From: Minisyncoccota bacterium
GTDB lineage: Bacteria; Patescibacteriota; Minisyncoccia; Phycocordibacterales; DATDWN01
Assembly (NCBI GenBank): GCA_036517395.1
Contig: DATDWN010000016.1
Coordinates: 11,262-75,261, forward strand
Direction of reading: 5' to 3'
DNA: 64,000 nucleotides
In this document: positions 654 to 20,570 of the stretch, piece by piece
Numbering within the stretch: position 1 is the stretch's first letter
Layout of the letters: each line of letters begins with the position of its first letter
Made by a program: the position numbers and the translations under genes
Notes under the pieces: model-generated
Databases searched by the model: none
Told to the model about the DNA's origin: nothing
Seen by the model: the letters and a program-made list of their open reading frames with translations, nothing else

Positions 654-2486
654 TTAAAGAAGTAGAACAAAAAATCGCCAAAAGGGTGTTTTTTTGTTAT
701 ATTGGTGATGTATTGGGGGATTAGTTAAGTGGTATAACAGCGCTCTCCAAAAGCACTGTCGGGAGTTCGATTCTTCCATCCCCCGCATTGTAGCGAATGA
801 AGTCTCAAAAGCTTCTTTTTGCCTTGTAGTATAGCCACGCTTTTTAGGTTCGAGCGAAGCAAAGAGGACTTTCTGAGACCGAAGTTCATTTTCAATGAGC
901 AAATACGGATGTATGCGTTCTATATTGAGCTTTTTATCTTTTAGAGTTAGGTTCGAGCCGATGGTAGAAAATATATTACGCTTCTTTTGAATGTCATCTG
1001 TAACAAAGTGTTTTAACGCAAATCTACAGAAATTAAATGTACGCTCTGTTGTCTCTATGGATTGGTCAAATTTTGTTTTTACTTCATTAAGTTCAGTTTC
1101 AATCGCTCCTCTCTCTTTTAACAACCCTCTTTTCTGTTCAAGATATTCGTCTGGTGTATATAACTCATGATTGATATTTTGAGGTGAAGTATATTCTCGA
1201 TGAAGATTTGCGATACGAGTTTGCACATTATCATAAGTGGCTTGCAGTGAGTCACGAATTCTTTTCTCTCCACTTGTAGAGTCATTTTGTTTTTCAGAAA
1301 GATAATCAAGAGCAACTCTTAGATATTCTTCGTCAATCGTTAGACCAGAAAGAACTTCGTTGAATTGTGTATCGAGGTCTTCAAGTTTTATGGACCTCTG
1401 AGTACAGGTTTTACATGGTCTCTTCGTGCAGTGAAAATAAGTGTAGTGAAGAATGGTGGGATTAATCATCTCTGATATATCTGTTTTACATTTTGCACAA
1501 GCAGTTCTGCCTTCATACGCAAATTTGTATTTACATTTTGTACAAATAATCTGATGTTTTTCTTCTGCTGTGATAGTTCCATTACATTCTCCGCACTTAA
1601 TAAGTCCTGTCGCATAGAAATTTCTAGTTTTTGGTTGAGGCTTACCTTGCCTTCCAAGAAGGACCTGTGCTCGCCAGAATTCTTTTTCCGTAATCATTGG
1701 CTGATGATTACCTTTGTATAATTCTTTTTCTCCGGTCTCATCATTCTTCCATTCAAAAGACCCATAGTAAAAAGGTTCTTTGAACATTTCATAAATCTGT
1801 GTACGACTTAATGGCTTACCACCAAGGCGTTTTCTTATTGTTGTTCTTAGCCCCCATTTGGTATTTGCTGTATCAAGGATTTTGGTCACTGAATATGTGC
1901 CTGTGAGAAACAGGTCCCACATTTTTCGGACAATTTCAAAATTTTTCTCATCGGGTACAATAATTTTTTCTCCTTTGTCGCCTTGATTTTTATAACCTAT
2001 TGGAGCAAGGCTTGGTCGCCAACCCTTTGCGACTCTTGAATTCAAGCCTCGCTTAACATTCTTAGAAAGTCTGACCACATAGTCGGTAGCACGACCACCT
2101 TCAATACTCATAAGAAGACCAGCATCTTCTGGATAGAATGAGCGACTTGGAGTTTTAATTACTTTTATGACAGATTTTTGGAGCATCCATTGTAACCGCC
2201 CATTATCAATCGGATTTCGAGATAAGCGGTCAATATCCCAACACAAAAGACCGTCTGCCTCGCCATTTTGAATACGATCTAGCATTTCATTAAAGACTTT
2301 TCGCCCAGGATCCTTTGCACTCTTTTCTTCAGTGAAAGGTGCTTTTGCTAGAAACAATTCTTCACGGTCTGCAATCTGTTTAAGAGCGTCTGTTTGGTCG
2401 CCAATAGATGCAACTTGCCGTTGAGAGTCTTCAGAACTTTTACGACAGTATACGAAGTATTTTATTTTAGTATTATCTTGGGTCAT
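654..2486 (-). CDS. large serine recombinase (resolvase catalytic domain + recombinase domain + zinc ribbon)
   Basis: N-terminus 'YFVYCRKSSEDSQRQVASIGDQ' is the serine-recombinase catalytic motif; downstream 'CGECNGTI...CTKCKYKF' is a Cys4 zinc ribbon; 610 aa. The ORF reads through tRNA-Trp on the opposite strand. Confidence 0.8.
   Translation of the reverse strand: MTQDNTKIKYFVYCRKSSEDSQRQVASIGDQTDALKQIADREELFLAKAPFTEEKSAKDPGRKVFNEMLDRIQNGEADGLLCWDIDRLSRNPIDNGRLQWMLQKSVIKVIKTPSRSFYPEDAGLLMSIEGGRATDYVVRLSKNVKRGLNSRVAKGWRPSLAPIGYKNQGDKGEKIIVPDEKNFEIVRKMWDLFLTGTYSVTKILDTANTKWGLRTTIRKRLGGKPLSRTQIYEMFKEPFYYGSFEWKNDETGEKELYKGNHQPMITEKEFWRAQVLLGRQGKPQPKTRNFYATGLIKCGECNGTITAEEKHQIICTKCKYKFAYEGRTACAKCKTDISEMINPTILHYTYFHCTKRPCKTCTQRSIKLEDLDTQFNEVLSGLTIDEEYLRVALDYLSEKQNDSTSGEKRIRDSLQATYDNVQTRIANLHREYTSPQNINHELYTPDEYLEQKRGLLKERGAIETELNEVKTKFDQSIETTERTFNFCRFALKHFVTDDIQKKRNIFSTIGSNLTLKDKKLNIERIHPYLLIENELRSQKVLFASLEPKKRGYTTRQKEAFETSFATMRGMEESNSRQCFWRALLYHLTNPPIHHQYNKKTPFWRFFVLLL
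715..785 (+). tRNA. tRNA-Trp (anticodon CCA)
   Basis: Hand-folded cloverleaf: acceptor GGGGGAT/ATCCCCC, D-stem GTTA/TAAC, anticodon loop CTCCAAA (CCA at 747-749), T-arm GGGAG-TTCGATT-CTTCC. One C-A mismatch in the anticodon stem; 3' CCA is not encoded. Confidence 0.75.
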
Positions 2487-5013: not shown

Positions 5014-5134
5014 TATTTAGTAGATCAAAAAATATTAAAATAATTGCTAGATAAATATTGACTTGTGTTTATATATATTGAGGAGTAACATATGAATACT
5101 TGATTATTAACAAATTACTAATAAAGATACACCT

Positions 5135-5635: not shown

Positions 5636-5641
5636 AAGATT

Positions 5642-6547: not shown

Positions 6548-6548
6548 T

Positions 6549-6941
6549 ATGTACTGCGAACATTGTGGAACAAAAATAGATAAGTCACATAAATTCTGTA
6601 CTAAATGTGGAAATGCAACTGACCCTGCACAAGTAAAGGCCACCGTGACACAACATCCTGTATTAGCACTTAATGACAAGTGGTGGCACCGACTCCTAAA
6701 AGTTTTATATATCATTGTATATTTTCCGTTGTTAGGTATTGTTCCAATGGTTTGGAGTTCAAATGTTCCATATTGCTATGCTTCTTATTCATGCTATGGC
6801 TCATATAGCGAGGCTTTTTGGTACTCAGTTCTCACTTTGGTTATTTATGTAGTGACAATTAGATTAATCAAGATTGCTGTTATATATGTGGCTTTTGGTC
6901 GAAAAGCTGAATGGAAAAAGGAGTTTAAGAAACCTTTCTAA
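6549..6941 (+). CDS. zinc-ribbon domain membrane protein
   Basis: N-terminal 'CEHCG...FCTKCG' followed by TM helices. Confidence 0.55.
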   Translation: MYCEHCGTKIDKSHKFCTKCGNATDPAQVKATVTQHPVLALNDKWWHRLLKVLYIIVYFPLLGIVPMVWSSNVPYCYASYSCYGSYSEAFWYSVLTLVIYVVTIRLIKIAVIYVAFGRKAEWKKEFKKPF

Positions 6942-6945
6942 ATTT

Positions 6946-7410
6946 ATGATCATTTTTGGTTGGGGATTTCAGACAATTAAAAACTTTGGTCCGGCTTTTA
7001 AGAACCTTTGTAGTCATTGTAATAATGAACAGTACTGGGTTCTGACGAGGATCATGACATGGTTTACATTATTTTTTATTCCGATATTTCCATATGAAAT
7101 TACATATCGCCTATCATGTCCTGTATGCAAATATGGACTTACATTAAACCAGAAGCAAGTCAGTGAGATAAAACCGCTTGCTGAGTTAAATCAACTACTT
7201 GTTGAAGGCCAAATCACTCAAGAAGAATATCAAGTTCGGCTAAATCGACTCAATGATGGACCTTCTGAACCAATTGAAGCAGAAATTGTAGAAACTAAGG
7301 CTTTAACTGAAAATGTATCCAGCCTGAGCTACTGTGCAAGCTGTGGGGGCAAGGTTACAGAAGAATTAAGGTTTTGTGGAAATTGTGGAACTCCTACTAC
7401 AACAAAATAA
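6946..7410 (+). CDS. membrane protein with C-terminal zinc ribbon
   Basis: ATG at 6946 directly after the previous stop (the track ORF starting at 6874 overlaps in another frame). C-terminal 'YCASCGG...FCGNCG'. Confidence 0.5.
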   Translation: MIIFGWGFQTIKNFGPAFKNLCSHCNNEQYWVLTRIMTWFTLFFIPIFPYEITYRLSCPVCKYGLTLNQKQVSEIKPLAELNQLLVEGQITQEEYQVRLNRLNDGPSEPIEAEIVETKALTENVSSLSYCASCGGKVTEELRFCGNCGTPTTTK

Positions 7411-7413
7411 TTT

Positions 7414-8361
7414 ATGTTTTGCAAAAATTGTGGCAATGAAATAAAACAAGGAATTAAATTTTGCACTAAATGTGGAAAAGAAAGTTTGCCTATCCAAATC
7501 CCTATTAAAACTAAGTATAAAATACTGTTAAAAAACAAACTGAAGAAATTTCATCAGTTTTTAACAAAGAAAAAATTGATTATTGGGTGGGTCACACTTA
7601 CCATCCTAGTTCTAGGTGCATACTTTATATATACAAAAGGAAAACATAAGATACCGACAGCTGATCAAATACAGAAAGATATTGCGTCTGTTGTTGTAAA
7701 TATCTATTGCGAAGGATCCAATGGGTGGGATGACGAAACTCAAATATCTGGTGGCTCAGGTACTATTATTACTACTGATGGTCTTGTACTTACAAATGCA
7801 CATATAATTCCGCAAGGTAAAGACGAAAGCCTTTACGATAAAAGTTGTTTAGTAAGCCTTCCCGATCCAACAACAGGAGCTTCAAAGGAAATATATTATG
7901 CGAGACCTATTGTGGTCCCAGATATAAGTGAGAAATATGACCTCGCTTTCCTACAAATAGATGATGTTTATTATGATGAAGCAGAAGATAAATTTTATGG
8001 TGAATACCCTAAAGTATTTCCTGCGTATGATGATGAAAAATATTGTAAGGCAGAGGATGTAAAGCTTGGTGAACCAGTTAGAATATATGGTTACCCTGCA
8101 ATAAGTGGTGGATATGCACTCACTATTACTGACGGTATAGTTAGTAGTCTACTCCCAAAATCTGGATACATTATAACTTCTGCAAAAATTAGTCATGGAA
8201 ATTCTGGTGGTCTTGCAGTTGATCAATATGGGTGCAGAATTGGAGTACCATCAATGGTTAGCGGTGATGATTATGAGAGTTTAGGGGTCATCATTTCAAA
8301 CAATCTTATATATGATTTCACGGAGGAAATAAGAACCATATTAAATACTACAGACAACTAA
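7414..8361 (+). CDS. zinc-ribbon + TM + trypsin-like (S1) serine protease domain protein
   Basis: N-terminal 'CKNCG...FCTKCG', TM, 'TDGLVLTNAHI' (His) and 'GNSGG' (Ser) S1 motifs. Confidence 0.65.
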   Translation: MFCKNCGNEIKQGIKFCTKCGKESLPIQIPIKTKYKILLKNKLKKFHQFLTKKKLIIGWVTLTILVLGAYFIYTKGKHKIPTADQIQKDIASVVVNIYCEGSNGWDDETQISGGSGTIITTDGLVLTNAHIIPQGKDESLYDKSCLVSLPDPTTGASKEIYYARPIVVPDISEKYDLAFLQIDDVYYDEAEDKFYGEYPKVFPAYDDEKYCKAEDVKLGEPVRIYGYPAISGGYALTITDGIVSSLLPKSGYIITSAKISHGNSGGLAVDQYGCRIGVPSMVSGDDYESLGVIISNNLIYDFTEEIRTILNTTDN

Positions 8362-9272
8362 TGAATAATTCTAATACTAAAGAACTTGTTATAGGAATAG
8401 TTATTTTAGTCATCTCAGCTTCAAGTCTGCTTATTAAAAGTATTCCTATTATATGGATCGGAGGTTTTATTTGGGGAGGTAGCATGATAGCTAAAGCATT
8501 AAATAACAAAAAACAATATTCTTTTCGGACCACAGAAATTGAAAAAGAAATAATAACATGTGATAACTGTAAACAAAAAATAAGAGTGCCAAAAGACAGA
8601 CAAAGATTTATCAATATTACTTGTCCCCATTGTAAAGAGAGTCCATTTTTGAGTTTATCTGATAGATTTCATAGAAGTCCTAGAAAAACAAAATTGCTTT
8701 GGATTGGAGGTCTAATTTTTGTAATCCTTGTATTTACATATGTGATATTCAAAAGTGGAAATTCTGTTACCACTCCACCTGTAACCCCAGTAGTCGCAAC
8801 CACAATAACACCTCAAAAGACTCAACAACCCTCAATAGTTCCAACCCCAACTAATATAGTTTCTTTTTCAAACGGAGAGTTTCTTACTAAAAATTCTTAC
8901 TATTTACAAGGATCAGGAAACTTAGAAATTAGAAATGGAACCAATAATAACGCAGTAGCGAAACTTGTGAGTACGGTTACAGACAAATCAGTGGCGACTG
9001 TCTATATTGGAGCAAATAACACTTACACCTTAAAAAATATTTCTAATGGAAGTTACAGATTGGTTTTTAACTTAGGTCACGATTGGGATACCATAAGTAA
9101 AAAGTTTACAAGAAATTCTAGCTACTCGGTTTTTGAGGAGAATTTCGACTATACAACAAGATCATCTAGCGATGGCTACTACTACCGAACATTTGAAGTT
9201 ACCCTAAACCCAGTTATTGGTGGGACAGCTGAAACTAATGATATAAACCAAGAAGAGTTTAGTGCTTACTAG
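8361..9272 (+). CDS. membrane protein with internal zinc ribbon (CDNC...CPHC) and Pro/Thr-rich linker
   Basis: TM helices, 'CDNCKQKIRVP...CPHCKE', PT-rich segment, C-terminal beta-rich domain. Confidence 0.5.
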   Translation: MNNSNTKELVIGIVILVISASSLLIKSIPIIWIGGFIWGGSMIAKALNNKKQYSFRTTEIEKEIITCDNCKQKIRVPKDRQRFINITCPHCKESPFLSLSDRFHRSPRKTKLLWIGGLIFVILVFTYVIFKSGNSVTTPPVTPVVATTITPQKTQQPSIVPTPTNIVSFSNGEFLTKNSYYLQGSGNLEIRNGTNNNAVAKLVSTVTDKSVATVYIGANNTYTLKNISNGSYRLVFNLGHDWDTISKKFTRNSSYSVFEENFDYTTRSSSDGYYYRTFEVTLNPVIGGTAETNDINQEEFSAY

Positions 9273-9339
9273 CCACACTCTCGGCCAGGACCATCCATTG
9301 GTCTAGGTAAGTCTTTAATGCTAAACTCAACTTATTACA

Positions 9340-10185
9340 ATGAAAAAATATTTCCTAATTATTATTTTAATAATACTAGTAATTCCATCCGTCACTTTTG
9401 CTTCTTGGTGGAACCCTTTCACTTGGAAAGTCCCTGTTAAAAATAAATCTTCCCAAACAGTACCAGCTCGGCTAGCCACTACGACTCAAGCTAAAAGTGA
9501 GATTGAAGAATTAAAAAATCAACTCAAATTAGAAAGTGAAAAACGCCAAGAATTAGAAAAGAAAATTCAAACTACAAAGGAAAGTCCAAAAACTAAGACC
9601 CAGACAGTTTCTCCGCAACCATCTACATCAGTCCAAAAACCAGTAGAACAAAAAACCTTCACTACACCCAGTGGTAGTGTTATAGACTCCAGTGGAAATG
9701 TAATATCAACACCTAAAATAGACCAGACACAAACAACCGTTCAGCCCACTAGCGACCCAACCATAGGTCCTCGCTATTATGACTCTAAAAAAACTTGTAT
9801 CGGTCTCTCAGGTAGTCAATACTCTGATTGTGTAAACTATGCATTTAGCCCTCAAGTGCAACAAAAAGAAACTCAGCAAAACACGCAACAAAGGACTACT
9901 CAAGGTGAGACGATGTCCTACACTGAGGGAGCTAGGGCGAGAGCACAACAGGATTTAGTTACAGAATATAATAATGCTAAAGCTTATATAGACCAACAAA
10001 TTATTGATATAAAAAATAAGTATTATTTAGACCTAGAACAGAATAACAACCGAGCAGTTCCAATGTCTTTTATAGAAGGAATGGCACAAAAATTACTTAC
10101 AGATGCAAATAATAAAATTAATAAACTTATACTTCAGCAACAACAATTACAGCTTGATTATCAAATAAAACTAAATAATTTATAG
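9340..10185 (+). CDS. secreted coiled-coil / Q-rich protein
   Basis: Signal peptide, 'EIEELKNQLKLESEKRQELEKK' coiled coil, Q/T-rich. Confidence 0.45.
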   Translation: MKKYFLIIILIILVIPSVTFASWWNPFTWKVPVKNKSSQTVPARLATTTQAKSEIEELKNQLKLESEKRQELEKKIQTTKESPKTKTQTVSPQPSTSVQKPVEQKTFTTPSGSVIDSSGNVISTPKIDQTQTTVQPTSDPTIGPRYYDSKKTCIGLSGSQYSDCVNYAFSPQVQQKETQQNTQQRTTQGETMSYTEGARARAQQDLVTEYNNAKAYIDQQIIDIKNKYYLDLEQNNNRAVPMSFIEGMAQKLLTDANNKINKLILQQQQLQLDYQIKLNNL

Positions 10186-10194
10186 ATACTGAAT

Positions 10195-10539
10195 ATGAAA
10201 AAATTAACTTTATTAATAGCATTATTCTGTTTCACTTTCTTTCCCTTAGTTTCTTTTGCTCACCCAGGAAGGACAGACTCATCAGGTTGCCACACCTGCA
10301 AGACTAATTGCCCTAATTGGGGGCTATCATATGGAGAGTATCATTGTCATAACTCCAAAGGCACTACCCAGCCCAAAGAGCCTATAAAGAGCACTTATGG
10401 GGCAAATGGGACCGGTTCCGTTTCTCCAGCTCCTGAGTATAAGACACCAAAGGTGGAGGCAGTTAAAACTAATACTCAAACAAGTGCGAAGACTGCAGAA
10501 AAAAGTAATTGGTTCACTCGATTATTTAGTTGGCTTTAA
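10195..10539 (+). CDS. small secreted Cys/His-rich protein
   Basis: Signal peptide; 'CHTCKTNCPNW...YHCH'. Confidence 0.45.
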   Translation: MKKLTLLIALFCFTFFPLVSFAHPGRTDSSGCHTCKTNCPNWGLSYGEYHCHNSKGTTQPKEPIKSTYGANGTGSVSPAPEYKTPKVEAVKTNTQTSAKTAEKSNWFTRLFSWL

Positions 10540-10796
10540 TAATTAATATGGAAAAGATAAAACAACAAAAATATGTAATTTTAATATCACTAATAATATT
10601 AGGGTTTGTTTTTTATTGGTTTGAATTAAGACCAAATAATATTAGAAAAGAGTGTATAAAAACTTATCCTGATGCTTTTAGAATACCGACTGATGATAAC
10701 GGTATTGGTCGTTTAATAAGTGTCGGTAACTATAAAGGTAGTATTGATAAAGCAGGTTATGAAAAATGTCTACGGGAAAATGGTTTAGATAGATAA
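10530..10796 (+). CDS. small membrane-anchored hypothetical protein
   Basis: 88-aa ORF with an N-terminal TM helix. Confidence 0.35.
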   Translation: MALIINMEKIKQQKYVILISLIILGFVFYWFELRPNNIRKECIKTYPDAFRIPTDDNGIGRLISVGNYKGSIDKAGYEKCLRENGLDR

Positions 10797-10802
10797 AATT
10801 AT

Positions 10803-11114
10803 ATGAGAATTAATAAAATATTATCAATAGTATCTGGAGTAATGCTTCTACTGGCAATTCCATCTATGTGGCCATATGGTTATTATCAATTACTTCGATG
10901 GGTAGTCTCAATAGTCGGAATTTCTAACGCTTATCAGACTTATAAATTAAATTCAAAAGGTTGGGCAATAACAATGGTAGTTATAGCTATTCTTTTTAAT
11001 CCCATAGAACCATTAATTTTCTCAAAAGGAACTTGGATTTTATTTGATTTAGCTACAGCTTTTATTATGTTTACGATGTCGTCTAAATTCAAAAATGAAG
11101 TAATAAAAAATTAA
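10803..11114 (+). CDS. small membrane protein
   Basis: 103 aa, 3 predicted TM helices. Confidence 0.4.
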   Translation: MRINKILSIVSGVMLLLAIPSMWPYGYYQLLRWVVSIVGISNAYQTYKLNSKGWAITMVVIAILFNPIEPLIFSKGTWILFDLATAFIMFTMSSKFKNEVIKN

Positions 11115-11119
11115 TTAAT

Positions 11120-11305
11120 ATGAGAAACTTAATAGCACTTATATCTACAGAAGGAAAGTCTCCGGAACAAATTAAAAAAGAGACAGTTTTGGCATTTCAA
11201 AAATATCAGGAAGTAAAAAGCCAAGTTGAAAAGCAATTAAAAGAAACCCAAAAGGAAGTGAGATCACAGATAGTCTTTATTCCGAAGTTTGTCCCAAAAA
11301 AATAG
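11120..11305 (+). CDS. small charged hypothetical protein
   Basis: 61-aa K/E-rich ORF. Confidence 0.3.
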   Translation: MRNLIALISTEGKSPEQIKKETVLAFQKYQEVKSQVEKQLKETQKEVRSQIVFIPKFVPKK

Positions 11306-11595
11306 GATTTTAGAAAGAGTCGTCATTCATAGATGTCTGTACATCAAAATGAACTTTTACCTCCTAAAAACTCTTCTAAAATGCTGTATTACTTCAAAAA
11401 TGTGGATAACTTGACCTTTTTATGTATGTGGAATAGTATAATGAACCTACACGAATGTACCGTGCTCTATAATTCCTTACGGTACACATACACAAATAAT
11501 TATGTTTTCTTGCCACTTTTTTCTGATAAAGAGAAAAAAGTCTGCGGTCTCCGTGAGGAGCTCTTTTTTATTATATAAAATTTCGGCGTAAGATG

Positions 11596-11698
11596 TGAGC
11601 TGGATAGGACTCGAACCTATATCATGACCTTAGAATGGTCAGCCCTGGGGAGGGTATAGTTTTCAAGACTACTGTTCTATCCATTGAACTACCAGCCC
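11596..11698 (-). tRNA. atypical tRNA, anticodon UGA (Ser-like) with extra hairpin; ~103 nt
   Basis: Reverse complement folds: acceptor GGGCTGG/CCAGCTC, D-arm GTTC-AATGGATA-GAAC, anticodon arm GTAGT-CTTGAAA-ACTAT, variable hairpin CCCT-CCCC-AGGG, an additional TGACC-ATTCTAA-GGTCA hairpin, T-arm ATAGG-TTCGAGT-CCTAT. Confidence 0.55.
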
Positions 11699-12757
11699 AC
11701 ATCCTACTCCAAAATTTGGAGTAGAGAAAAACCAATTAAAGTTTTTTCTTTTTATCAGAAGTGCCTTTCTTCTTTGCGGGAGGGGGCATTTTCTGTTTTT
11801 CCTCGTCAACTTCAAAACAAAACGCTCTCAGACCTTTTTCCCATGCATAAAGTATTTTTCCGTTACGCAAAGTAATAAAAGGTCTACATATGAGTGTAGC
11901 CACTTTATTTTATCTATCTGTATCCTAATAATGCCTTTGCTCTTTAGGCGAGCCGTTACGGCTGACACAATTTTCCGTTGGTATAGTTTAGATTACTTAT
12001 TATATAGCTAATCTTATAAACCCAACTCGGCTTTTTGCTTTAGGAACGATTTAGTGGACAGCACTCTGGGAGTTACCCCTCAAGTTTACACCTGGGAAAG
12101 TTTCCTTCCCCAAAATGCTTTCCACCAAATCTTTCAAAAAACATCTTGTCGAGTGCTGTCCACCAATGACTTATTCATCGGTACCATAATTATACTACAT
12201 ACAGTTTTCATTGCAAATAAAATTTCAATATAAAGTTGTGGACAGCCCAAAAAATCAGAAAAATAAAAAATAGATTTTGACTAATCTGTTTTTATAGAAA
12301 AGCTTGGGTAGGGTATGTACCCCCCCACCCCAAAAACACCCTTTATTGCATGGGATGACCTATTGGCGGTATTTCCTCACCACCCCCTGCCAAAGTCGGG
12401 GGTAGATGCACCTCCACCCCCTGGACCATATACGAAGCTTGGAGCGTGTTATGTTAAGATTGGTACATAAAACATTGTGTTTTGGCTCTCATACCAAGTT
12501 CTAACAGCCTCAACAGTGTTCCGCATATACGACGAACCCCACGCGCTCAGCTTACGCGTGGGGACAGGCTGGTAGCTCTCAGGAGAACAGTGATACTACC
12601 AACCATCGAAGAAGGAACGGGAAACCGAAGACGATCACTATGGTCATGATGACCATGCCAAGCAGTAGGGCTTGGCCGTCATGCTCAGTGCAAGACTCGG
12701 GACTGGTCACAATTACCCTCCACTATTCTTTTTACTACAAAACCAATTTTTAATCAA

Positions 12758-12788
12758 CCCTGTAGTGAGTTTCGCTCTACTACGGGGC
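12758..12788. repeat. family B (CCCTGTAGT...ACTACGGGG) element, short copy upstream of miaA
   Basis: CCCTGTAGTGAGTTTCGCTCTACTACGGGG. Confidence 0.6.
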
Positions 12789-12809
12789 AAGGAATCTCTT
12801 AATTTCTCT

Positions 12810-13694
12810 CTAAATCCTAGTTATTTCACCAGGTTTAAACCATTTTATTCTTTTGTCTCTCTTAAACCAGACCATTTGGCGTTTGGCATAGTGCCAGATT
12901 TCGGTTTCGAGTTTTTTGATAAAGTTTTCTTTCGTAATTTTCTTTTCCATAAAATCGGCGAGATATCTATACTCCAAACCAAGCTCTCTCATACGTTTCC
13001 AAGATAGGCCGTTTTTATGTAGATTTTTTGCCTCGGTTATCATGCCTGCTCTAATTCGCGCGAATAGGCGAACATGTATTCTCTTTTTTAATTCTTTATC
13101 AGGCAACCTCAATCCTATTTGTAAAAATTTGTAAGGATTTTCACCCATTTTTATTTCCGGAGTTCTGCCTAGTGCTGTTGCAATTTCAATGGCTCGTATT
13201 AGTCTCACAGGGTTTTTAATATCAATATTTGAAAATCGTCTTGGGTCTAATTTAACCAAGATTGTTTGTAATTCCGCCAAACCTTTTTTCTCTAATTTTT
13301 TTCGCAATACTTTATTTGGTGGTACTTCTGGTAGGATAACATTTTCAACTATTGATTGAATATAAAATCCAGTGCCCCCACAGATTATGGGCAGTTTGCC
13401 TCGAGAGATTATGTTTTTAATTATTTTTTCCGTTTTTTCCTTCCATTCGCTTACCGTAAAAACTTTTTTTGGCGATACTATGTCTAGCATATGGTGGGGA
13501 ACACCTCGCATCTCTTTTTTCGTAATTTTTCCCGTACCGATATCCAAATCTTTGTAAACCTGTCTCGAATCAGCAGAAATCACCTCGCCCTTATATTTTC
13601 GAGCGAGTTTTACAGCCAAACCGCTCTTGCCCGTGGCTGTTGGGCCAAGAATTACAAGAATTTTAGAACTATTTTTGCTTGATTTTTCTCTCAT
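12810..13694 (-). CDS. miaA: tRNA dimethylallyltransferase
   Basis: P-loop 'GPTATGKSGLAVKLA', 'ISADSRQVYKDLDIGTGK', 'VPHHMLD'. Confidence 0.9.
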   Translation of the reverse strand: MREKSSKNSSKILVILGPTATGKSGLAVKLARKYKGEVISADSRQVYKDLDIGTGKITKKEMRGVPHHMLDIVSPKKVFTVSEWKEKTEKIIKNIISRGKLPIICGGTGFYIQSIVENVILPEVPPNKVLRKKLEKKGLAELQTILVKLDPRRFSNIDIKNPVRLIRAIEIATALGRTPEIKMGENPYKFLQIGLRLPDKELKKRIHVRLFARIRAGMITEAKNLHKNGLSWKRMRELGLEYRYLADFMEKKITKENFIKKLETEIWHYAKRQMVWFKRDKRIKWFKPGEITRI

Positions 13695-13715
13695 TTCCGT
13701 TATTATACATTACAT

Positions 13716-13801
13716 GTCGGAGTGGCGGAACGGTAGACGCGATGGACTCAAAATCCATTGATGGCAACATCATGAGAGTTCAAGTCTCTCCTCCGACACC
13801 A
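13716..13801 (+). tRNA. tRNA-Leu (anticodon CAA), class II
   Basis: Acceptor GTCGGAG/CTCCGAC, anticodon arm ATGGA-CTCAAAA-TCCAT, long variable arm TGATGGCAACATCATGA, T-arm GAGAG-TTCAAGT-CTCTC, CCA encoded. Confidence 0.8.
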
Positions 13802-13807
13802 GTTTAA

Positions 13808-15160
13808 TTAATCCAAGACTTTTATATTTGCTCCAATAGCGTTTAGTCTTTCAGCTATATTTTCATATCCGCGTTTTATGGAATACACATTGCGCAAAGT
13901 GGATTCTCCCTTAGCACCGAGCATCGCAACCAAAATCATCGTTGCTGGGCGTAGAGCGGGGGGACACACAAGATCATTTCCCTTCAGATCTGTTGGCCCC
14001 TGGACAAAAACTCTATGTTGATCAGCTAAAACAATATTTGCGCCAAGGTGATTTAACTCGGTAAAATAAATTGCCCGATTTTCCCACATCCAATCATGAA
14101 TCAGTGTCGTGCCGTTAGTCGCTGTAGCAATAGGCACAAAAAACGGCAAATTATCACTGTTAATTCCAGGATATGCCGAGGCGTGGATTTTTTCGCCTAA
14201 AGCTTGGAGTAGGGAAGGGTGGATCGTGATGTCGCACAAACGAGTTCGGCCGTTTTGAGCGAAATATATTTCTGATTTTTCATAATTTAGTCCCATTTTC
14301 TCAAGTTTCAAAAGTTCAAGGGATAAAAAGTCAATCGGGCATCGTGTTATAGACAACGTGGAGCCTGTGACAATAGCGGCAGAAATAAACATCATTGATT
14401 CTGTCGGGTCTTCGCTGTTGAAATACTCTATGGGTTTGTTTATCTCCTTTATTCCATGGACTACAAGAGTCGATGTGCCAATTCCGTCAATTATTACTCC
14501 GCATTTTTCCAAGAAAAAACAAACCTCTTGGACTTGGTAGTTCGGTGGGGTAAATCGCAAAGTGGTTTGGCTGGGAATCAATGCTGAAGTCAAAAGAAGA
14601 TTTTCTGTAGCGGTGTCTGAGGCTTCGTAGAGGACAATGTCCGCTGGTTTCAATTTATTACAGGAAATTTCGTAATAGGATTCTTTTGTCAAAATTTTTA
14701 CACCCAATGATTCCAAACCATATTTGTGAGCGGCAATAGTTCGCTGTCCCATTTTACATCCGCCGGCGTGTGGTAGGCTAAATTTTTTCTCGAAATGTAT
14801 TAAAGCTCCGATTCCCATTATTATTGAACGGATTCTACTAGATGCCTTACTGTTTATTTTTTCAATATGAAACTTTTTGGGTGGAGTAATTCTAACAGAG
14901 TTTTTTCCAATCCATTCCACTTTTACTCCTATGCTTTCAAATATTTCTATAATACGAAATATTTCCTCTATGCGAGGAATACCATGCAGTATGGTCTCTG
15001 CTTTATTCAGAAGTGATGCACAAAACAGTCCCATGGCACCGTTTTTGGAAGTGTTTGTCTGTATCGTGCCAGAAAGTTTCCTCCCTCCGACTATCTTGAA
15101 ATTGTCAGTTTCGCTTGTTGTTTTTTCCATCAGGCGGATTATAGCATATCGATTATGCAT
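13808..15160 (-). CDS. murA: UDP-N-acetylglucosamine 1-carboxyvinyltransferase
   Basis: Whole-length similarity to MurA, e.g. 'RVFVQGPTDLKGNDLVCPPALRPATMILVAML...', 'IKRGYENIAERLNAIGANI'. Confidence 0.9.
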   Translation of the reverse strand: MHNRYAIIRLMEKTTSETDNFKIVGGRKLSGTIQTNTSKNGAMGLFCASLLNKAETILHGIPRIEEIFRIIEIFESIGVKVEWIGKNSVRITPPKKFHIEKINSKASSRIRSIIMGIGALIHFEKKFSLPHAGGCKMGQRTIAAHKYGLESLGVKILTKESYYEISCNKLKPADIVLYEASDTATENLLLTSALIPSQTTLRFTPPNYQVQEVCFFLEKCGVIIDGIGTSTLVVHGIKEINKPIEYFNSEDPTESMMFISAAIVTGSTLSITRCPIDFLSLELLKLEKMGLNYEKSEIYFAQNGRTRLCDITIHPSLLQALGEKIHASAYPGINSDNLPFFVPIATATNGTTLIHDWMWENRAIYFTELNHLGANIVLADQHRVFVQGPTDLKGNDLVCPPALRPATMILVAMLGAKGESTLRNVYSIKRGYENIAERLNAIGANIKVLD

Positions 15161-15241: not shown

Positions 15242-16276
15242 ATGTCACAATTTTATAACGATTCTATTTTCTGGGTTGATGTGGACAAAATACATCCAAA
15301 CCCCTTTCAGCCAAGGCGGGAGTTTGACCCCGCTCAAATGCAAAGCCTTTCTGACTCCATAAGACAGTACGGTGTGTTGCAGGCCCTTGTCGTAACTCGT
15401 GTAGAAAAGCCAAAAGAGGACGGGGGACTGGCTGTGGAGTATGAACTCATAGCAGGTGAGCGCCGTCTTCGCGCCTCTAAACTGGCTGGACTTTCACAGG
15501 TGCCTGTTCTGATAAAAGTGGGAGATGAAGGCAACGACTTGATGAAACTTGAGCTGGCTATAATAGAAAACATTCAGCGCGAGGATCTCAATCCTGTTGA
15601 TCGTGCTCGTGCTTTCCAGCGTTTGATAGACGAGTTTGGTTTTACACACACGGCAATCGCCAAAAAAGTTGGAAAGAGTCGCGAGTATGTTTCCAACTCT
15701 GTCCGTCTTCTTGCTCTTCCTCCTGAAATTTTGGACGCACTATCTCAAGGTAAAATTTCCGAAGGGCACGCTAGACCTCTCATGATGCTCGGTGACAGAC
15801 CAGAAGAACAGAATACGTTGTTTAAAGAAATAATGTTCAGAAAGCTTACTGTTCGCGAGGCAGAAGCCATAAGTCGTCGTATCGCTTATGACAAAATCAG
15901 GAAGAAGGGTGCAACTCTTGACCCGGAAACACAGGAAATGGAAGAGAAACTAACCGAGACACTTGGTACGCGAGTTTCCATAGAAAAGCGTGAAAACGGT
16001 GGTAAGATTTTGATAGATTTTTTCTCAACTGAAGATCTGAAGGGGATATTGGAACTTTTGAAATCAAATAAAACAAAATCCCCAACAGAACTTCTAGACA
16101 AGCACATAGGAGCCAACCCGATCCCGCCAGTAAACGAATTTGTCCCAAACTATGTTCGCGACGAAAAACTAGCTGATATGACGCTGGCTGACTTGGATGA
16201 CAGAACTCCAGAGCAAAAGAAGCAAGAAGAGAATAGTGAGGATGAGATATACTCGATAAAAAATTTTAGTATATAA
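15242..16276 (+). CDS. parB: ParB/Spo0J-like partition protein
   Basis: 'LIAGERRLRASKLAGL' ParB box and 'IENIQREDLNPVDRA' HTH region; no adjacent parA. Confidence 0.8.
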   Translation: MSQFYNDSIFWVDVDKIHPNPFQPRREFDPAQMQSLSDSIRQYGVLQALVVTRVEKPKEDGGLAVEYELIAGERRLRASKLAGLSQVPVLIKVGDEGNDLMKLELAIIENIQREDLNPVDRARAFQRLIDEFGFTHTAIAKKVGKSREYVSNSVRLLALPPEILDALSQGKISEGHARPLMMLGDRPEEQNTLFKEIMFRKLTVREAEAISRRIAYDKIRKKGATLDPETQEMEEKLTETLGTRVSIEKRENGGKILIDFFSTEDLKGILELLKSNKTKSPTELLDKHIGANPIPPVNEFVPNYVRDEKLADMTLADLDDRTPEQKKQEENSEDEIYSIKNFSI

Positions 16277-17899: not shown

Positions 17900-20159
17900 G
17901 CCTTTTTTTCTCTTCCTGCAAAATTTCTAGTGCGCGGGGAAGTTCTATTGTGTACACATCATCTTCTTTCAGAGAGCGAAAATCTTTTTGATGTACTATG
18001 TATGGCCCGAAACGTCCAATGTTTGCCGTTATCTTTTCACCGGTATCAGGATGAACCCCCAAGACTTTCGGAAGCGACAAATATTTTAGTGCATCAGCCA
18101 ATGTCACCGTGCTCAAATCTTTCTCTCTCGGTATTGATGCCATTTTTGGCTTAATTGCTTTTTTCGAACCCTTGCCCTTCACCCTCTCTCCAACCTGAAC
18201 ATATGGCCCGTACTTTCCAATATTTACAAAAATCGGCAAACCAGATTCCGGATCAACTCCTACGGGTTCATCCTTTTTAATCTCCTCTCCCGCCATAGTC
18301 AAAGCACCTTCACAGTCAGGATAGTTAGAACAGGAAAGAAACTTGCCGTTTCGAGAAAGTTTTATAATCATATCTTTGCCACATTTTGGACATCGGAATT
18401 CGAGACCGGCGTCACCCAGGTTTGTGATCTTATCAATTTTTTCCTTGGCTTTTACATCGGCCAAAAATGGCTTATAAAAAGTAGCCAATGTTTTTACATA
18501 TTCTTCCTTACCCTCGGCTATGAGGTCGAGTTTATCTTCCATGTCAGCCGTGAAGCTGTCGCTTATGTACTCGGCAAAATTTGCTTCCAAAAAACTAGAT
18601 ACAACATCGCCCGTGTCAGTGGGTACCAGTGCCTTGCTCACTTTCTCCACGTAACCTCTATCCTCCAAAGTTTTTATGGTTGAAGCGTATGTACTAGGCC
18701 TTCCTATGCCTCTTTTCTCAAGTTCCTTAATCAATCCTGCTTCAGAGTATCTTCCTGGTGGTTCGGTCTGCTTTTCTTCTGTATTAATTTTTTTCAAATT
18801 AAGAGCCTCACCGATTTTGACTTTTGGCAATTCAACATCATCTCCTCGCGAAGCCGGATCTCCGAGGAGCCATCCAGCAAATTTAATTTGCGAACCAGTT
18901 ATAGAAAAATCCGGAATATGTGTGTCAAGGACAGTCCTTGACATTGACACATTTGCTGATATTTTGGTTCGAAGTGTCAGAGCATCTTTCATTTGCGATG
19001 ACACAGTTCGTCGCCATATGAGCTTATAAAGTTTTTTCTGTTCATCATTAAAACCGACATGCTCGGCTTCAAAATGTGTTGGGCGTATAGCCTCGTGCGC
19101 CTCCTGTGCGTTTTTGGATTTAGTTGCAAATTTTCGTATTTGTAAATATTCTTTACCAAACTTTTTCTCCACCACTGCCGCAATCTGTGCTATAGCAACA
19201 CCACTCAAGTTTGTCGAGTCCGTGCGCATGTATGTAATATGTCCACACTCATATAATTTCTGTGCAATACCCATTGTTCTTGATGGAGAAAATCCTAGCC
19301 GTGATGATGCTGTCTGTTGAAGTGTGGAGGTTATGAAAGGCGCACGAGGGGATTTTTTCACATCCGTCTCTTTTACATCTTTCACAAACCAGCTGTTTTC
19401 CTTTCCTCCCTTTTCTGCAATTTCCACAATCCGCTCCATTTCTTTTTTATCTGTTGGTTCTTCTTCGCAGACAACAGTAAAAATCTGTTTTCCCCTAGGC
19501 AACGCCTCGGGAGATTTATCTGAGGTATCCGAGGCGTTGCCTAGGGAAGAGATCTCTGCTGAAATAATCCAGAAAGCATGAGACTTAAAAGCCCGGATTT
19601 CTCTCTCGCACTCCATGATAATGCGCAGAGCGGGGGATTGGACGCGTCCGGCAGAGAGGCCATATCGTACTTTTTTCCATATCAAACCCGACAAGTCGTA
19701 TCCCACGAGCCTATCGAGGACTCGCCTTGCTTCCTGCGCTTGTCGCAAATTCTGATCGATATCCCGTGGATTTTTCAAAGCTTCCTCTATCGCTTCCTTA
19801 GTAATTTCCTGATATGAAACCCTCTTCACTTTTTTGTTATGTACTATATGTTCTGTGCCCTTATCATTAATAAGTTCTGCCAAGTGCCATGCTATCGCCT
19901 CACCCTCGCGGTCGGGGTCAGTTGCAAGCAGAACTTCACTGGACTTTTTGGCCAAAGCTTTTATACCATTGACCACTTTCTCCTTGCCTTTGGAAATTTC
20001 ATAGTGCGGCACGAAACCACCCTCGATGTCGATGGCCACTTTGTTCGACTTTGGCAAATCACGAACATGGCCGACAGAAGCAACCACTTCATATCCACTT
20101 CCAAGATATTTTGAAATAGTCTTGGCTTTGGCGGGGGACTCAACGATAAGTAACTTCAT
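17874..20159 (-). CDS. topA: DNA topoisomerase I
   Basis: Toprim 'LLIVESPAKAKTISKYLG', active-site region, C-terminal Zn ribbons 'CPKCGKDM', 'CSNYPDC'. Confidence 0.9.
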   Translation of the reverse strand: MKLLIVESPAKAKTISKYLGSGYEVVASVGHVRDLPKSNKVAIDIEGGFVPHYEISKGKEKVVNGIKALAKKSSEVLLATDPDREGEAIAWHLAELINDKGTEHIVHNKKVKRVSYQEITKEAIEEALKNPRDIDQNLRQAQEARRVLDRLVGYDLSGLIWKKVRYGLSAGRVQSPALRIIMECEREIRAFKSHAFWIISAEISSLGNASDTSDKSPEALPRGKQIFTVVCEEEPTDKKEMERIVEIAEKGGKENSWFVKDVKETDVKKSPRAPFITSTLQQTASSRLGFSPSRTMGIAQKLYECGHITYMRTDSTNLSGVAIAQIAAVVEKKFGKEYLQIRKFATKSKNAQEAHEAIRPTHFEAEHVGFNDEQKKLYKLIWRRTVSSQMKDALTLRTKISANVSMSRTVLDTHIPDFSITGSQIKFAGWLLGDPASRGDDVELPKVKIGEALNLKKINTEEKQTEPPGRYSEAGLIKELEKRGIGRPSTYASTIKTLEDRGYVEKVSKALVPTDTGDVVSSFLEANFAEYISDSFTADMEDKLDLIAEGKEEYVKTLATFYKPFLADVKAKEKIDKITNLGDAGLEFRCPKCGKDMIIKLSRNGKFLSCSNYPDCEGALTMAGEEIKKDEPVGVDPESGLPIFVNIGKYGPYVQVGERVKGKGSKKAIKPKMASIPREKDLSTVTLADALKYLSLPKVLGVHPDTGEKITANIGRFGPYIVHQKDFRSLKEDDVYTIELPRALEILQEEKKRRGFKKKSK

Positions 20160-20198
20160 AGCTATTGATTATTACCTCAAAAAAAATATTTGTCCAAT

Positions 20199-20350: not shown

Positions 20351-20570
20351 AGCCTCGTGATGGAATCACGAGGCTCTCAAGAACGACGGAGTGTCTTACG
20401 GAGTTGTCTCAACTCCAGTGGCCATTTGCCCGAGCGGACGAGGTGGTCTTCCTACCCACGAATCCTCGACTCGTTTCGACCAACATCTTTCACAGAATGC
20501 TGCTCTTGTTCCTGGTGGGACGAGTGGTCCCCAGTGGTGAATGCACACATTCCCCACTTGAACACAAATT

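What the first reader, a model, noticed from the sequence alone, without database searches (positions are those of the whole stretch)
11700..12810. 1.1-kb gene-free, hairpin-dense region between the atypical tRNA and miaA
No credible ORF lies in this stretch. It has multiple long inverted repeats (GTGGACAGCACTC...GAGTGCTGTCCAC at 12053/12150; CCCCACGCG-loop-CGCGTGGGG; GGTCATGATGACC; GCCAAGC-AGTAGG-GCTTGGC), C-rich tracts (CCCCCCCACCCC), HindIII-bounded segments and a family B repeat. It could hold one or more ncRNA genes, the decayed island boundary (attR), or an origin-like region (parB is 2.5 kb away).
Basis: seen in the sequence. Interest (0 to 1): 0.5.

Follow-up and report, generated by a model that had tools for sequence, protein, structure and literature searches.

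The report
Mobile-element junction beside miaA
The "gene-free, hairpin-rich" kilobase is the right-hand end of an 11.7-kb mobile element inserted at a tRNA-Trp gene; it includes the cut-off last 25 codons of the element's own recombinase gene and an unexplained, possibly RNA-coding stretch.

Summary
The hairpins and repeats are real, but the stretch is a composite, not one feature. Contigs from the same groundwater population carry the empty site: window 1-788 is joined directly to 12521-14201 at 100% identity, sharing the 6-bp core CCGCAT. Window 789-12526 is therefore an 11,738-bp integrative element inserted at the 3' end of tRNA-Trp, with a large serine recombinase at its far end.

- **Host DNA (12527-12810):** the miaA terminator repeat, a doubtful 43-codon ORF and a terminator hairpin.
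- **attR and detached gene end (12449-12526, minus strand):** this holds the last 25 codons of the recombinase. A related element differs at 9 codons, 7 synonymously. The same tail ends intact 589-600-aa homologues, one on a circular ~10-kb element. So attP lies inside the recombinase ORF, and integration swaps its C-terminus.
- **Element non-coding DNA (11699-12448):** G-rich hairpins, an AT-rich promoter-like spacer, three GTGGACAGC copies, a 116-nt strongly folding minus-strand RNA candidate with no homologue found, and the leader of an odd tRNA-like gene.

There are no Rfam hits, no DnaA boxes and no GC-skew switch here. The attR idea is right, but the junction is precise, not decayed. The origin idea is rejected. 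The ncRNA idea is unproven.

The parts
12757..12786 (-). Hairpin directly after the miaA stop codon. Host DNA.
   Evidence: Self-BLAST finds copies at about 60784-60814, 46499-46524 and 44841-44870. Similar copies occur in L011 and L043. The hairpin is present in the empty-site contig L045.
12579..12710 (-). Candidate 43-codon ORF with a GTG start, preceded by GGAGGG at 12716-12721 with a 5-nt spacer. It would encode a hydrophobic peptide. Host DNA, low confidence.
   Evidence: The sequence is. The 44-nt leader is 84% identical to the stretch after miaA in L012 (alignment), where a 62-codon hydrophobic ORF with AGGAGGG follows. No homologue was found for either peptide, and the window ORF was never called as a gene.
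12537..12563 (.). A 9-bp G+C-rich hairpin. In the empty site it lies 13 nt after tRNA-Trp, so it probably serves as a two-way terminator for tRNA-Trp and for the miaA side. Host DNA.
   Evidence: Sequence. The empty-site sequence in L045 reads ...CCATCCCCCGCATATACGACGAACCCCACGCGCTCAGCTTACGCGTGGGG.
12521..12526 (.). Core CCGCAT of attR. The second copy is at 783-788, in attL at the 3' end of tRNA-Trp. The crossover lies somewhere within it.
   Evidence: L045 and L046 align at 100% to window 1-788 and to 12521-14201, with a 6-nt overlap. Three miaA-side contigs end exactly at 12521 and a fourth at 12525. A related element in L051 has the core TCCGCAT at both of its ends.
12449..12526 (-). Detached 3' end of the large serine recombinase gene: MRNTVEAVRTWYESQNTMFYVPILT plus the stop codon. 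It is also the P arm of attR.
   Evidence: Joining 789..2486 to ..12526 on the minus strand keeps the frame and adds this tail (corrected; sequence). The tail is conserved in L051, where 9 codons differ: 7 synonymous and 2 conservative. The same motif ends the full-length homologues P0185, P0228, P0242 and P0245-P0247. P0185 is encoded uninterrupted on a circular element of about 9.96 kb.
12296..12448 (-). Run of hairpins that is G-rich on the minus strand, with three imperfect 21-nt repeats (12311-12331, 12367-12387, 12400-12420). It ends in a terminator-like site at 12306-12322 plus a T-rich tail. Inferred to be the terminator region behind the recombinase ORF in the excised form and a barrier to read-through from miaA in the integrated form.
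   Evidence: Repeats and the terminator-like site. The copy nearest the core is conserved in position and partly in sequence in L051. The circular element L052 also has a G+C hairpin plus T-run just after the stop codon. Folding z-scores here are only -1.3 to -2.0.
12167..12295 (-). AT-rich spacer holding a sigma-70-like promoter (TTGCAA-16-TATAAT, 12216..12189, minus strand) and the third GTGGACAGC copy (12238-12246).
   Evidence: The promoter scan gives a 10 of 12 match, but the number of such sites in the region is not above chance (5 found against 3.9 expected).
12051..12166 (-). Candidate 116-nt structured RNA: a 16-bp closing stem around four small hairpins, one with a GAAA loop. Alternatively, the two arms are DNA binding sites.
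   Evidence: MFE is -57.1 kcal/mol with z = -5.6 on the minus strand, against -36.7 and z = -2.3 on the plus strand. No Rfam match. No hit with covariance model R1 in 310 kb of related loci. No hit in phages, plasmids or IMG/VR. A SNP at 12077 in L005 and L007 breaks a predicted pair.
11699..12050 (-). Spacer or leader between the RNA candidate and the tRNA-like gene. It contains the palindrome 11704-11724 and the arm 11742-11760, which pairs with 11521-11539 beyond the tRNA-like gene.
   Evidence: Inverted repeats I2 and I22. The minus strand of 11510-11800 folds at -86.7 kcal/mol, z = -5.2, with leader-trailer pairing around the tRNA-like gene. There is no convincing ORF.
11596..11698 (-). 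Element-borne tRNA-like gene with about 32 extra nucleotides. It lies outside the finding and is given as context.
   Evidence: Rfam tRNA model, 61.2 bits. ARAGORN does not call it.
654..2486 (-). Large serine recombinase ORF in its integrated form (610 codons). Codons after the junction at 789 are read from the antisense of tRNA-Trp. Given as context: this is the other end of the element.
   Evidence: Pfam Resolvase, Recombinase and Zn_ribbon_recom domains. Translations of both forms are. tRNA-Trp is at 715-786.

Best explanation
The 1.1-kb stretch is a composite made by a site-specific insertion.

**The insertion.** An 11,738-bp integrative element (window 789-12526) sits between the 3' end of tRNA-Trp(CCA) and the terminator downstream of miaA. 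It has lower G+C than the host DNA, 35.5% against 41.6%. It carries a large serine recombinase, an AAA_25 ATPase, a LOOT RNA and cargo genes.

**The three parts of the stretch.**
- 12527-12810 is ordinary host intergenic DNA: terminator hairpins and perhaps a small ORF.
- 12449-12526 is attR. It holds the CCGCAT core and the element's P arm.
- 11699-12448 is non-coding DNA of the element.

**The split gene.** The P arm is also coding sequence. The recombinase ORF runs across attP, so integration cuts off its last 23 codons. They are left at this end of the element, and the gene body instead reads on into the antisense of tRNA-Trp. Excision to a circle restores the full ORF.

**What is shown and what is inferred.**
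- Shown: the precise junction, the polymorphic occupied and empty alleles, the conservation of the tail as coding sequence, and an intact ORF on a circular relative.
- Inferred: that the swap changes recombinase activity or stability, making a switch that depends on the integration state.
- Inferred: that the G-rich hairpins behind the tail act as terminators.
- Inferred: that the promoter-like site at 12216-12189 drives a minus-strand transcript holding the 116-nt hairpin RNA and the tRNA-like gene.
For: - **Synteny.** Relatives place tRNA-Trp and rpmG directly after miaA, 22 nt after it in L011.
- **Empty site.** L045 and L046 equal window 1-788 plus 12521-14201 at 100% identity, with a 6-nt overlap. 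The occupied allele (L003, L024, L044) and the empty allele (L045) come from the same JGI sample, 3300002502.
- **Contig ends.** Contig ends at 12521 and 788 match that branch point.
- **Recombinase.** The Pfam domains of a large serine recombinase are present.
- **Related element.** In L051 the recombinase is 79% identical and the element sits at another tRNA. It shares the 72-nt end block and the core, and 7 of 9 differing codons in the tail are synonymous.
- **Tail motif.** The tail motif ends 589-600-aa homologues. About 100 of the 120 closest homologues instead end at the junction or in antisense-tRNA 'DSN' tails.
- **Circular form.** L052 and L053 are permutations of a circle of about 9.96 kb with the intact ORF.
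- **Family marker.** LOOT RNA is present in all 7 family elements examined.
- **Composition.** The element's G+C is 0.355 against 0.416 for the host DNA.
Against: - No circular or attP-junction sequence of this particular element was found. IMG/VR gave nothing, and the metagenome collection I could scan lacks these samples.
- No dyad symmetry was detectable around the core in the predicted attP or attB.
- Some full-length-tail homologues lie on long chromosomal contigs. Not every family member need have attP inside the ORF.
- Nothing shows that the integrated-form protein differs in activity.
- The non-coding part of the element (11699-12448) is absent from the related elements examined (L033, L035, L050, L051, L052). 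Its function rests on folding energy and consensus matches only.
Confidence: 0.85

Rival explanations
1. The segment at 12040-12250 works at the DNA level, not as an RNA gene. The three GTGGACAGC copies (two inverted, one upstream) around a 70-nt AT-rich spacer would be binding sites for an element-encoded protein. That could be an operator for the promoter-like site, or the element's own replication origin served by the AAA_25 protein.
For: - The motif occurs 3 times in 64 kb, all here, against 0.21 expected.
- The closing 'stem' of the RNA candidate is made of two of these copies.
- The natural SNP at 12077 breaks an inner predicted pair with no compensating change.
- The family includes a circular, probably replicating, form.
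Against: - The minus strand folds far better than the plus strand, through G-U pairs in the inner hairpins. A pure DNA site would not need that.
- The spacing and mixed orientation of the copies do not look like regular iterons.
- Related elements, including the circular one, lack this segment. It cannot be the family's essential origin.
Confidence: 0.25
2. The element's terminal non-coding DNA (about 11699-12448, outside the conserved att arm) is decaying or neutral cargo: remnants of earlier rearrangements with no present function. On this view its hairpins are incidental.
For: - It is absent from all related elements examined.
- No homologue was found in phages, plasmids or IMG/VR.
- There is no Rfam hit.
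- SNPs hit predicted pairs in both the RNA candidate and the tRNA-like gene.
- Most windows have unremarkable folding z-scores.
Against: - Two sub-segments fold far better than shuffles, with z = -5.6 and -5.2.
- A near-consensus promoter sits at the right distance upstream.
- The tRNA-like gene still scores 61 bits against the tRNA model.
- The segment is essentially identical across the contigs from different samples that cover it, with a single SNP, although these are all very close strains.
Confidence: 0.3
3. The G+C-rich host part (12579-12756) is a real small-protein gene. It could be a single-pass membrane peptide of the type I toxin kind, expressed from its own leader downstream of miaA.
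For: - A strong GGAGGG site lies 5 nt before the GTG start, and the ORF encodes 43 hydrophobic codons followed by a G+C hairpin.
- L012 has the same 44-nt leader (84% identity) followed by a different 62-codon hydrophobic ORF and a hairpin.
Against: - Neither peptide has any homologue in 5.8 billion or 1.84 billion proteins.
- The ORF was never called in any contig.
- The two peptides are not alignable.
- L012 is the only one of 11 Patescibacteria relatives with such an ORF.
Confidence: 0.25
4. The stretch is, or contains, the chromosomal replication origin, because parB is nearby.
For: parB lies about 2.4 kb away at 15242-16276.
Against: - There is no DnaA-box-like site in 11700-12810.
- The cumulative GC-skew minimum and the switch in gene orientation are at about 20-22 kb.
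- About 820 bp of the stretch is absent from the empty-site allele of the same population. It cannot be essential chromosomal DNA.
Confidence: 0.02

Closest known systems
attL/attR junctions of elements integrated by large serine recombinases (phiC31, Bxb1 and SPbeta-type integrases)
   Same: - The recombinase has Resolvase, Recombinase and zinc-ribbon domains and sits at one end of the element.
- The insertion is precise.
- Only a very short identity (6 bp) is shared between the element and target sites, with no long direct repeats.
- Occupied and empty alleles both exist.
   Different: - The target is the extreme 3' end of a tRNA gene. From my own knowledge, that is the usual habit of tyrosine integrases rather than serine ones.
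- The attP core lies inside the recombinase ORF.
- No half-site dyad symmetry could be seen.
SSV-type 'suicidal' tyrosine integrases of archaeal viruses and plasmids, whose attP lies within the integrase ORF (PMC7253208; review PMC8371274)
   Same: - The recombination site lies inside the recombinase's own reading frame.
- Integration, into a tRNA gene, separates the gene into two parts at the two ends of the element.
- Excision restores the gene.
   Different: - The enzyme chemistry here is serine, not tyrosine, and the host is bacterial (Patescibacteria).
- Only the last 23 of about 591 codons are detached, and they are replaced by a host-encoded tail.
- The catalytic and DNA-binding domains stay in one piece, so the integrated copy is probably not dead.
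Integration-dependent immunity of mycobacteriophages such as BPs (PMC4557955, PMC3694055)
   Same: attP sits within the 3' part of a phage gene. Integration therefore changes the C-terminus of its product, and the change acts as a genetic switch.
   Different: - There the gene is the repressor and the integrase is a tyrosine enzyme with a degradation tag.
- Here the altered gene is the serine recombinase itself.
- Any switch function here is only inferred.
LOOT RNA (Rfam RF03000) and other orphan structured RNAs of candidate phyla
   Same: Like LOOT, the candidate is a small multi-hairpin RNA of unknown function, carried by the same element, which has a LOOT copy at 4607-4729.
   Different: - The 12051-12166 candidate does not match LOOT or any other Rfam model.
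- It has no known homologue, whereas LOOT is found in all 7 related elements examined.

Membership tests
attR of an element integrated by a large serine recombinase | A recombinase with Resolvase catalytic, Recombinase and zinc-ribbon domains is encoded by the element. | tested here: met
   Pfam PF00239 (E = 1.1e-19) and PF07508 (E = 2.4e-9), with a weak PF13408 match, on ORF 654-2486.
attR of an element integrated by a large serine recombinase | The insertion is precise relative to an unoccupied target site. | tested here: met
   L045 and L046 equal window 1-788 plus 12521-14201 at 100% identity.
attR of an element integrated by a large serine recombinase | attP and attB share only a short core, and the P arm is conserved among elements with related recombinases. 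| tested here: met
   The core is the 6-bp CCGCAT. In L051 the 39 nt next to the core differ at 1 position, although the target tRNA and the host differ.
attR of an element integrated by a large serine recombinase | Imperfect inverted half-sites lie around a central dinucleotide. | tested here: inconclusive
   The best match is 8-9 of 22 positions, close to chance.
attR of an element integrated by a large serine recombinase | The recombinase catalyses attP x attB recombination. | not testable with these tools
   This needs an in vitro or in vivo recombination assay.
Recombinase gene that spans its own attP (SSV-type arrangement) | The ORF is continuous across attP in the excised form and is interrupted at the core in the integrated form. 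| tested here: met
   The join is in frame and the tail is conserved as coding sequence. The ORF is intact on the circular element L052/L053. Most homologues are truncated at the junction.
Recombinase gene that spans its own attP (SSV-type arrangement) | The enzyme is a tyrosine recombinase of the SSV family. | tested here: not met
   The enzyme has the serine-recombinase Resolvase domain.
Any described RNA family (Rfam 15) | A covariance-model match reaches the family threshold within 11700-12810. | tested here: not met
   No gathering-level hit was found. The best sub-threshold hits are implausible eukaryotic microRNA and snoRNA models.
Chromosomal origin of replication | A cluster of DnaA boxes and a GC-skew switch are present. 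| tested here: not met
   There are 0 DnaA-box-like sites in the stretch, and the skew minimum is at about 20-22 kb.
Type I toxin-like small membrane protein (for ORF 12579-12710) | The ORF encodes a short hydrophobic peptide and has a ribosome-binding site. | tested here: met
   GGAGGG precedes the GTG start by 5 nt, and the ORF has 43 mostly hydrophobic codons.
Type I toxin-like small membrane protein (for ORF 12579-12710) | A conserved peptide family and a partner antisense RNA exist. | tested here: not met
   No homologue was found. The antisense RNA was not tested.

The most novel reading that the evidence does not exclude
A widespread family of Patescibacteria integrative elements uses a tRNA-targeting large serine recombinase whose attP lies inside its own ORF. 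More than 2,000 recombinase homologues were found, and all 7 elements examined carry LOOT RNA. On this reading, integration replaces the conserved C-terminal tail (T-V-E-x-V-R-T-W...Y-V-P) with a peptide read from the antisense of the target tRNA, and this swap is a built-in switch of recombinase activity or stability that depends on the integration state. This copy of the element would also carry a private RNA module: a 116-nt multi-hairpin RNA plus a tRNA-like RNA held in a long stem. That module would be a new RNA class.
Probability: 0.3. Interest if true: 0.65.

Novelty: new variant of a known kind. Interest (0 to 1): 0.45.

Why it matters
Most of the stretch is now explained by something ordinary: the junction of a mobile element with host DNA, plus terminators. 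That is useful in itself, because it fixes the element's ends to the base and shows that the element is still polymorphic in a natural groundwater population.

The part worth attention is the recombinase gene that crosses its own attachment site. That arrangement is known for archaeal SSV-type tyrosine integrases and, in another form, for mycobacteriophage repressors. I found no description of it for large serine recombinases or for candidate-phyla bacteria. This is a limited literature search, not proof of absence.

If the C-terminal swap changes activity, it would give serine integrases a way to control direction that needs no separate factor. These enzymes are widely used as genome-engineering tools. 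It would also give a simple sequence signature for telling integrated copies of these elements from free ones in metagenomes.

The orphan RNA candidate and the tRNA-like gene remain leads only.

Tried and rejected
- **Rfam.** Searches at the gathering threshold over the whole window, and at E up to 10 over 11500-13000, gave only the tRNA-like gene and noise.
- **tRNA and tmRNA.** ARAGORN found none inside the stretch.
- **attR as a tRNA-Trp fragment.** There is no copy longer than 13 nt. The core is only 6 bp.
- **Exact-protein look-ups.** The 43-aa ORF is not on record, and the 81-aa ORF is on one contig only. The nearest MiaA variant (P0002) sits on a contig that ends 82 nt after miaA.
- **Metagenome DNA scans.** Scans for the RNA stem and for the host-side hairpin each gave 0 hits. 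The collection evidently lacks these samples, because JGI contigs I already held contain the patterns.
- **IMG/VR.**
  - Scans with the DUF6804 protein, the recombinase, the RNA stem, the predicted attP junction and the P arm found nothing.
  - The tRNA-arm pattern found only unrelated phage tRNA-Ser genes.
- **Phages and plasmids.** BLAST of 11560-12530 against both collections gave no match.
- **Covariance model.** A model of the RNA candidate searched over 310 kb of related loci hit only itself.
- **Homologues of the two small peptides.** None were found.
- **Recombinase remnants next to the tRNA-like gene.** I looked for signs of a second, decayed element there. Only weak matches appeared (best E = 0.009 at 11272-11331), and I treat them as chance.
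- **Dyad symmetry at the att sites.** None was found.
- **The 136-nt segment flanked by AAGCTTGG as a small insertion.** Rejected, because the similarity to L051 runs across its right edge.
- **Chromosomal origin.** Rejected.
Full report
**1. What is in the stretch**

Gene callers placed no gene between the 61-aa gene ending at 11305 and miaA at 12810 in most contigs that carry this DNA.

G+C rises to 50-54% at 12300-12700 against about 35% around it. In sliding 120-nt windows, only the minus strand at about 12020-12180 folds clearly better than shuffled sequence. As a 146-nt piece it gives -57.1 kcal/mol, z = -5.6, with 0 of 200 shuffles as good. The plus strand gives -36.7 kcal/mol and z = -2.3.

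Rfam finds nothing in the stretch, either at the curated thresholds or at E up to 10. It does find the neighbouring tRNA-like gene (11596-11698, minus strand, with about 32 extra bases) and a LOOT RNA at 4607-4729.

**2. The stretch straddles an insertion junction**

The window comes from a Paceibacterota-type (Patescibacteria) genome seen in aquifer metagenomes. In the nearest species-level relatives, miaA is followed at once by tRNA-Trp and rpmG. In L011 the gap is 22 nt. In the window, tRNA-Trp and rpmG lie 12 kb away, at 489-786.

Looking up the exact RpmG protein gave two contigs in which window 1-788 is joined directly to window 12521-14201. They are L045 from JGI sample 3300002502 and L046 from SRR2090155. 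Both parts match at 100% identity and share the six bases CCGCAT.

The same JGI sample also yields the occupied allele (L003, L024, L044). Three miaA-side contigs from different assemblies stop exactly at 12521 and a fourth at 12525. The rpmG-side contigs stop at 786-788. That is what a branch in the assembly graph would give.

So window 789-12526 is an 11,738-bp element. It is inserted at the extreme 3' end of tRNA-Trp, is flanked by CCGCAT, and is polymorphic in the population. Its G+C is 35.5% against 41.6% for the rest of the window.

At its tRNA end it encodes a large serine recombinase with Resolvase, Recombinase and zinc-ribbon domains. An AAA_25 ATPase gene lies beside it.

**3. The host part, 12527-12810**

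This part is present in the empty-site contigs. It holds three features.
- The hairpin after miaA (12757-12786) is a copy of a dispersed repeat.
- The 9-bp hairpin at 12537-12563 lies 13 nt after tRNA-Trp in the empty site. It probably terminates transcription from both sides.
- Between them lies a G+C-rich piece with a possible 43-codon ORF (12710 to 12579, GTG start, GGAGGG five bases upstream) for a hydrophobic peptide.

L012 has an 84%-identical 44-nt leader, followed by a different 62-codon hydrophobic ORF and a hairpin. However, neither peptide has any homologue, the window ORF was never called as a gene, and L012 is the only one of 11 Patescibacteria relatives with such an ORF. I rate it a weak candidate.

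**4. attR is also the cut-off end of the recombinase gene**

A related element (L051) has a recombinase 79% identical in protein. It is inserted at the 3' end of a different tRNA in a different host. Its far end, next to metK, carries a 72-nt block that is 87.5% identical to window 12459-12530. The 39 nt next to the core differ at one position, and the core there is TCCGCAT.

Read on the minus strand, window 12526 to 12449 is ATG CGG followed by 23 codons and a stop: MRNTVEAVRTWYESQNTMFYVPILT*. When the element's two ends are joined as a circle, this is in frame with the recombinase gene body (...ETSFAT-MR-NTVEAV...). My first join, left out the six core bases. Adding them back inserts two codons, keeps the frame, and gives about 591 codons.

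Between the window and L051, nine of these 25 codons differ. Seven differences are synonymous and two are conservative (M/L and V/I). That is the pattern of a translated sequence, not merely of a protein-binding site.

The same tail motif (T-[VLF]-[ED]-x-[VI]-R-[TNK]-W ... [FY]-x-[VI]-P) ends the 589-600-aa members of the family. Of the 120 closest homologues, 9 have a clear tail of this kind. A further 33 end in peptides such as ...RDSNS and ...DQGSNL, which are the antisense translation of a tRNA T-arm. Another 67 stop within a few codons after the junction.

One full-length member, P0185, is encoded on two contigs that are circular permutations of one molecule of about 9.96 kb. L052 has a 55-nt terminal overlap. 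The ORF there is uninterrupted across the site that corresponds to the core.

The attachment site of this family therefore lies inside the recombinase ORF, about 25 codons before the stop. In the integrated state seen in the window, the ORF instead reads through the antisense of tRNA-Trp to a stop at 654, giving 610 codons. Whether this changes the protein's activity or stability is inference.

**5. The element's non-coding end, 11699-12448**

Behind the tail's stop codon lie G-rich (minus-strand) hairpins with three imperfect 21-nt repeats. They end in a terminator-like site at 12306-12322 followed by a T-rich run. The repeat nearest the core has a counterpart at the same distance from the core in L051. 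The circular element has a G+C hairpin plus T-run just after its stop codon. I read this region as the terminator of the recombinase operon in the excised form and as a block to read-through from miaA in the integrated form. Its folding z-scores are modest.

Next comes an AT-rich spacer with a near-consensus promoter on the minus strand (TTGCAA-16-TATAAT, 12216..12189). The number of such sites in the region is not above chance. About 15 nt downstream of the expected start lies the 116-nt hairpin RNA candidate, and about 350 nt further on the tRNA-like gene. The flanks of that gene pair with each other, through a 19-nt arm at 11742-11760 and its partner at 11521-11539. The fold of 11510-11800 gives z = -5.2.

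Several observations argue against a functional RNA.
- This whole module is missing from the related elements examined (L033, L035, L050, L051, L052).
- A covariance model of the candidate finds nothing in 310 kb of related loci.
- No similar DNA exists in the phage, plasmid or IMG/VR collections.
- The only natural variant inside the candidate, at 12077 in L005 and L007, breaks a predicted G-C pair with no compensating change.
- The candidate's closing stem is made of two copies of GTGGACAGC. A third copy sits 72 nt upstream, and these are the only three in the 64-kb window, against 0.21 expected. That points equally well to a DNA-binding motif.

I therefore keep "RNA gene", "protein-binding sites" and "neutral cargo" as live alternatives for this sub-segment.

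**6. Origin hypothesis**

No DnaA-box-like site (up to 1 mismatch) falls in 11700-12810. The cumulative GC-skew minimum and the change of gene orientation lie at about 20-22 kb. About 820 bp of the stretch is dispensable, because it is absent from the empty-site allele. The origin idea is rejected.

**7. Comparison with known systems**

The junction is an ordinary attR of an element moved by a large serine recombinase, with two unusual traits. The target is the 3' end of a tRNA gene, and attP lies inside the recombinase ORF.

The second trait is the hallmark of the archaeal SSV-type "suicidal" tyrosine integrases (PMC7253208, PMC8371274). It also recalls integration-dependent immunity in mycobacteriophages, where attP lies in the repressor gene (PMC4557955, PMC3694055). 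Here the enzyme is a serine recombinase, so the element is not a member of those families. Only a short tail is exchanged, so the integrated copy is probably still active.

Literature searches found no description of this arrangement for serine recombinases, or of this element family in Patescibacteria. The library is incomplete, so this is weak evidence of novelty.

**8. Verdict**

The attR idea is right, and sharper than proposed. The origin idea is wrong. The ncRNA idea is unproven.

Most of the stretch is ordinary. The split recombinase gene is a new variant of a known arrangement and is worth a follow-up. The orphan RNA module is a lead only.

Noticed in passing
window 4607-4729 (+); L033 5134-5252; L035 3259-3380; L038 6481-6610; L050 4035-4151; L051 6838-6957; L052 6859-6979: LOOT RNA (Rfam RF03000, function unknown) is present in all 7 elements of this serine-recombinase family that I examined, including the circular one. 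It lies in the gap between the AAA_25/recombinase module and the cargo operon. It looks like a hallmark of this mobile-element family, possibly tied to its replication or regulation.
   Followed up: partly
window 11596-11698 (-), flanks 11521-11539 and 11742-11760: The element-borne tRNA-like gene has two hairpins shaped like anticodon arms, with loops CUUGAAA and AUUCUAA. Its acceptor stem is lengthened by leader-trailer pairing (about 7 bp, then a 19-bp arm), so the best fold has no free ends (z = -5.2). ARAGORN does not call it. A SNP at 11688 in L028 breaks D-stem pair 11-24. It may be a tRNA mimic held in a long stem rather than a decoding tRNA.
   Followed up: partly
window 654-788 (-): In the integrated state the recombinase ORF reads through the antisense of tRNA-Trp and ends 60 nt beyond it, giving 610 codons. 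Many database homologues end in 'DSN'-type peptides that are antisense translations of tRNA T-arms. This could serve as an annotation signature of integrated copies.
   Followed up: yes
L051 2835-5638; L035 554-1675: Related elements carry different cargo. L051 has an AAA_21/DUF4276 pair and a HEPN AbiU2 protein, which look like defence genes. L035 has an extra tyrosine integrase. The window's element carries zinc-ribbon, TPR, trypsin-like and DUF6804 proteins.
   Followed up: no
L043 3513-5185 (JGI 3300025317): Another strain has an 84%-identical version of window 1-1673 (rpmG, tRNA-Trp and the 3' part of the recombinase). A diverged copy of the element therefore sits at the same tRNA-Trp site in a related population.
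   Followed up: no
window about 20000-22000: The cumulative GC-skew minimum and the switch of gene orientation fall here (minus-strand genes up to about 21.4 kb, plus-strand genes after it), between dprA/topA and serS. This is a better candidate for a replication origin or terminus than the stretch under study.
   Followed up: no
L011 6908-6979 (-), L012 5475-5546 (+), L013 6927-6998 (+): The orientation of tRNA-Trp relative to miaA differs among close relatives. This suggests repeated rearrangement at this integration hotspot.
   Followed up: no
window 12757-12787, about 60784-60814, 46499-46524, 44841-44870; also L011 7629-7657 and L043 374-405: A hairpin repeat of about 30 nt recurs after genes in this genome and in relatives. 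It is a dispersed terminator-like element comparable to REP sequences.
   Followed up: partly
window 11272-11331 (+): There is a weak translated similarity (E = 0.009) to the recombinase segment just before the att junction ('LYSxLEPxKxGF.K'). It is out of frame with the 61-aa gene. It could be a trace of an older element end, or chance.
   Followed up: partly
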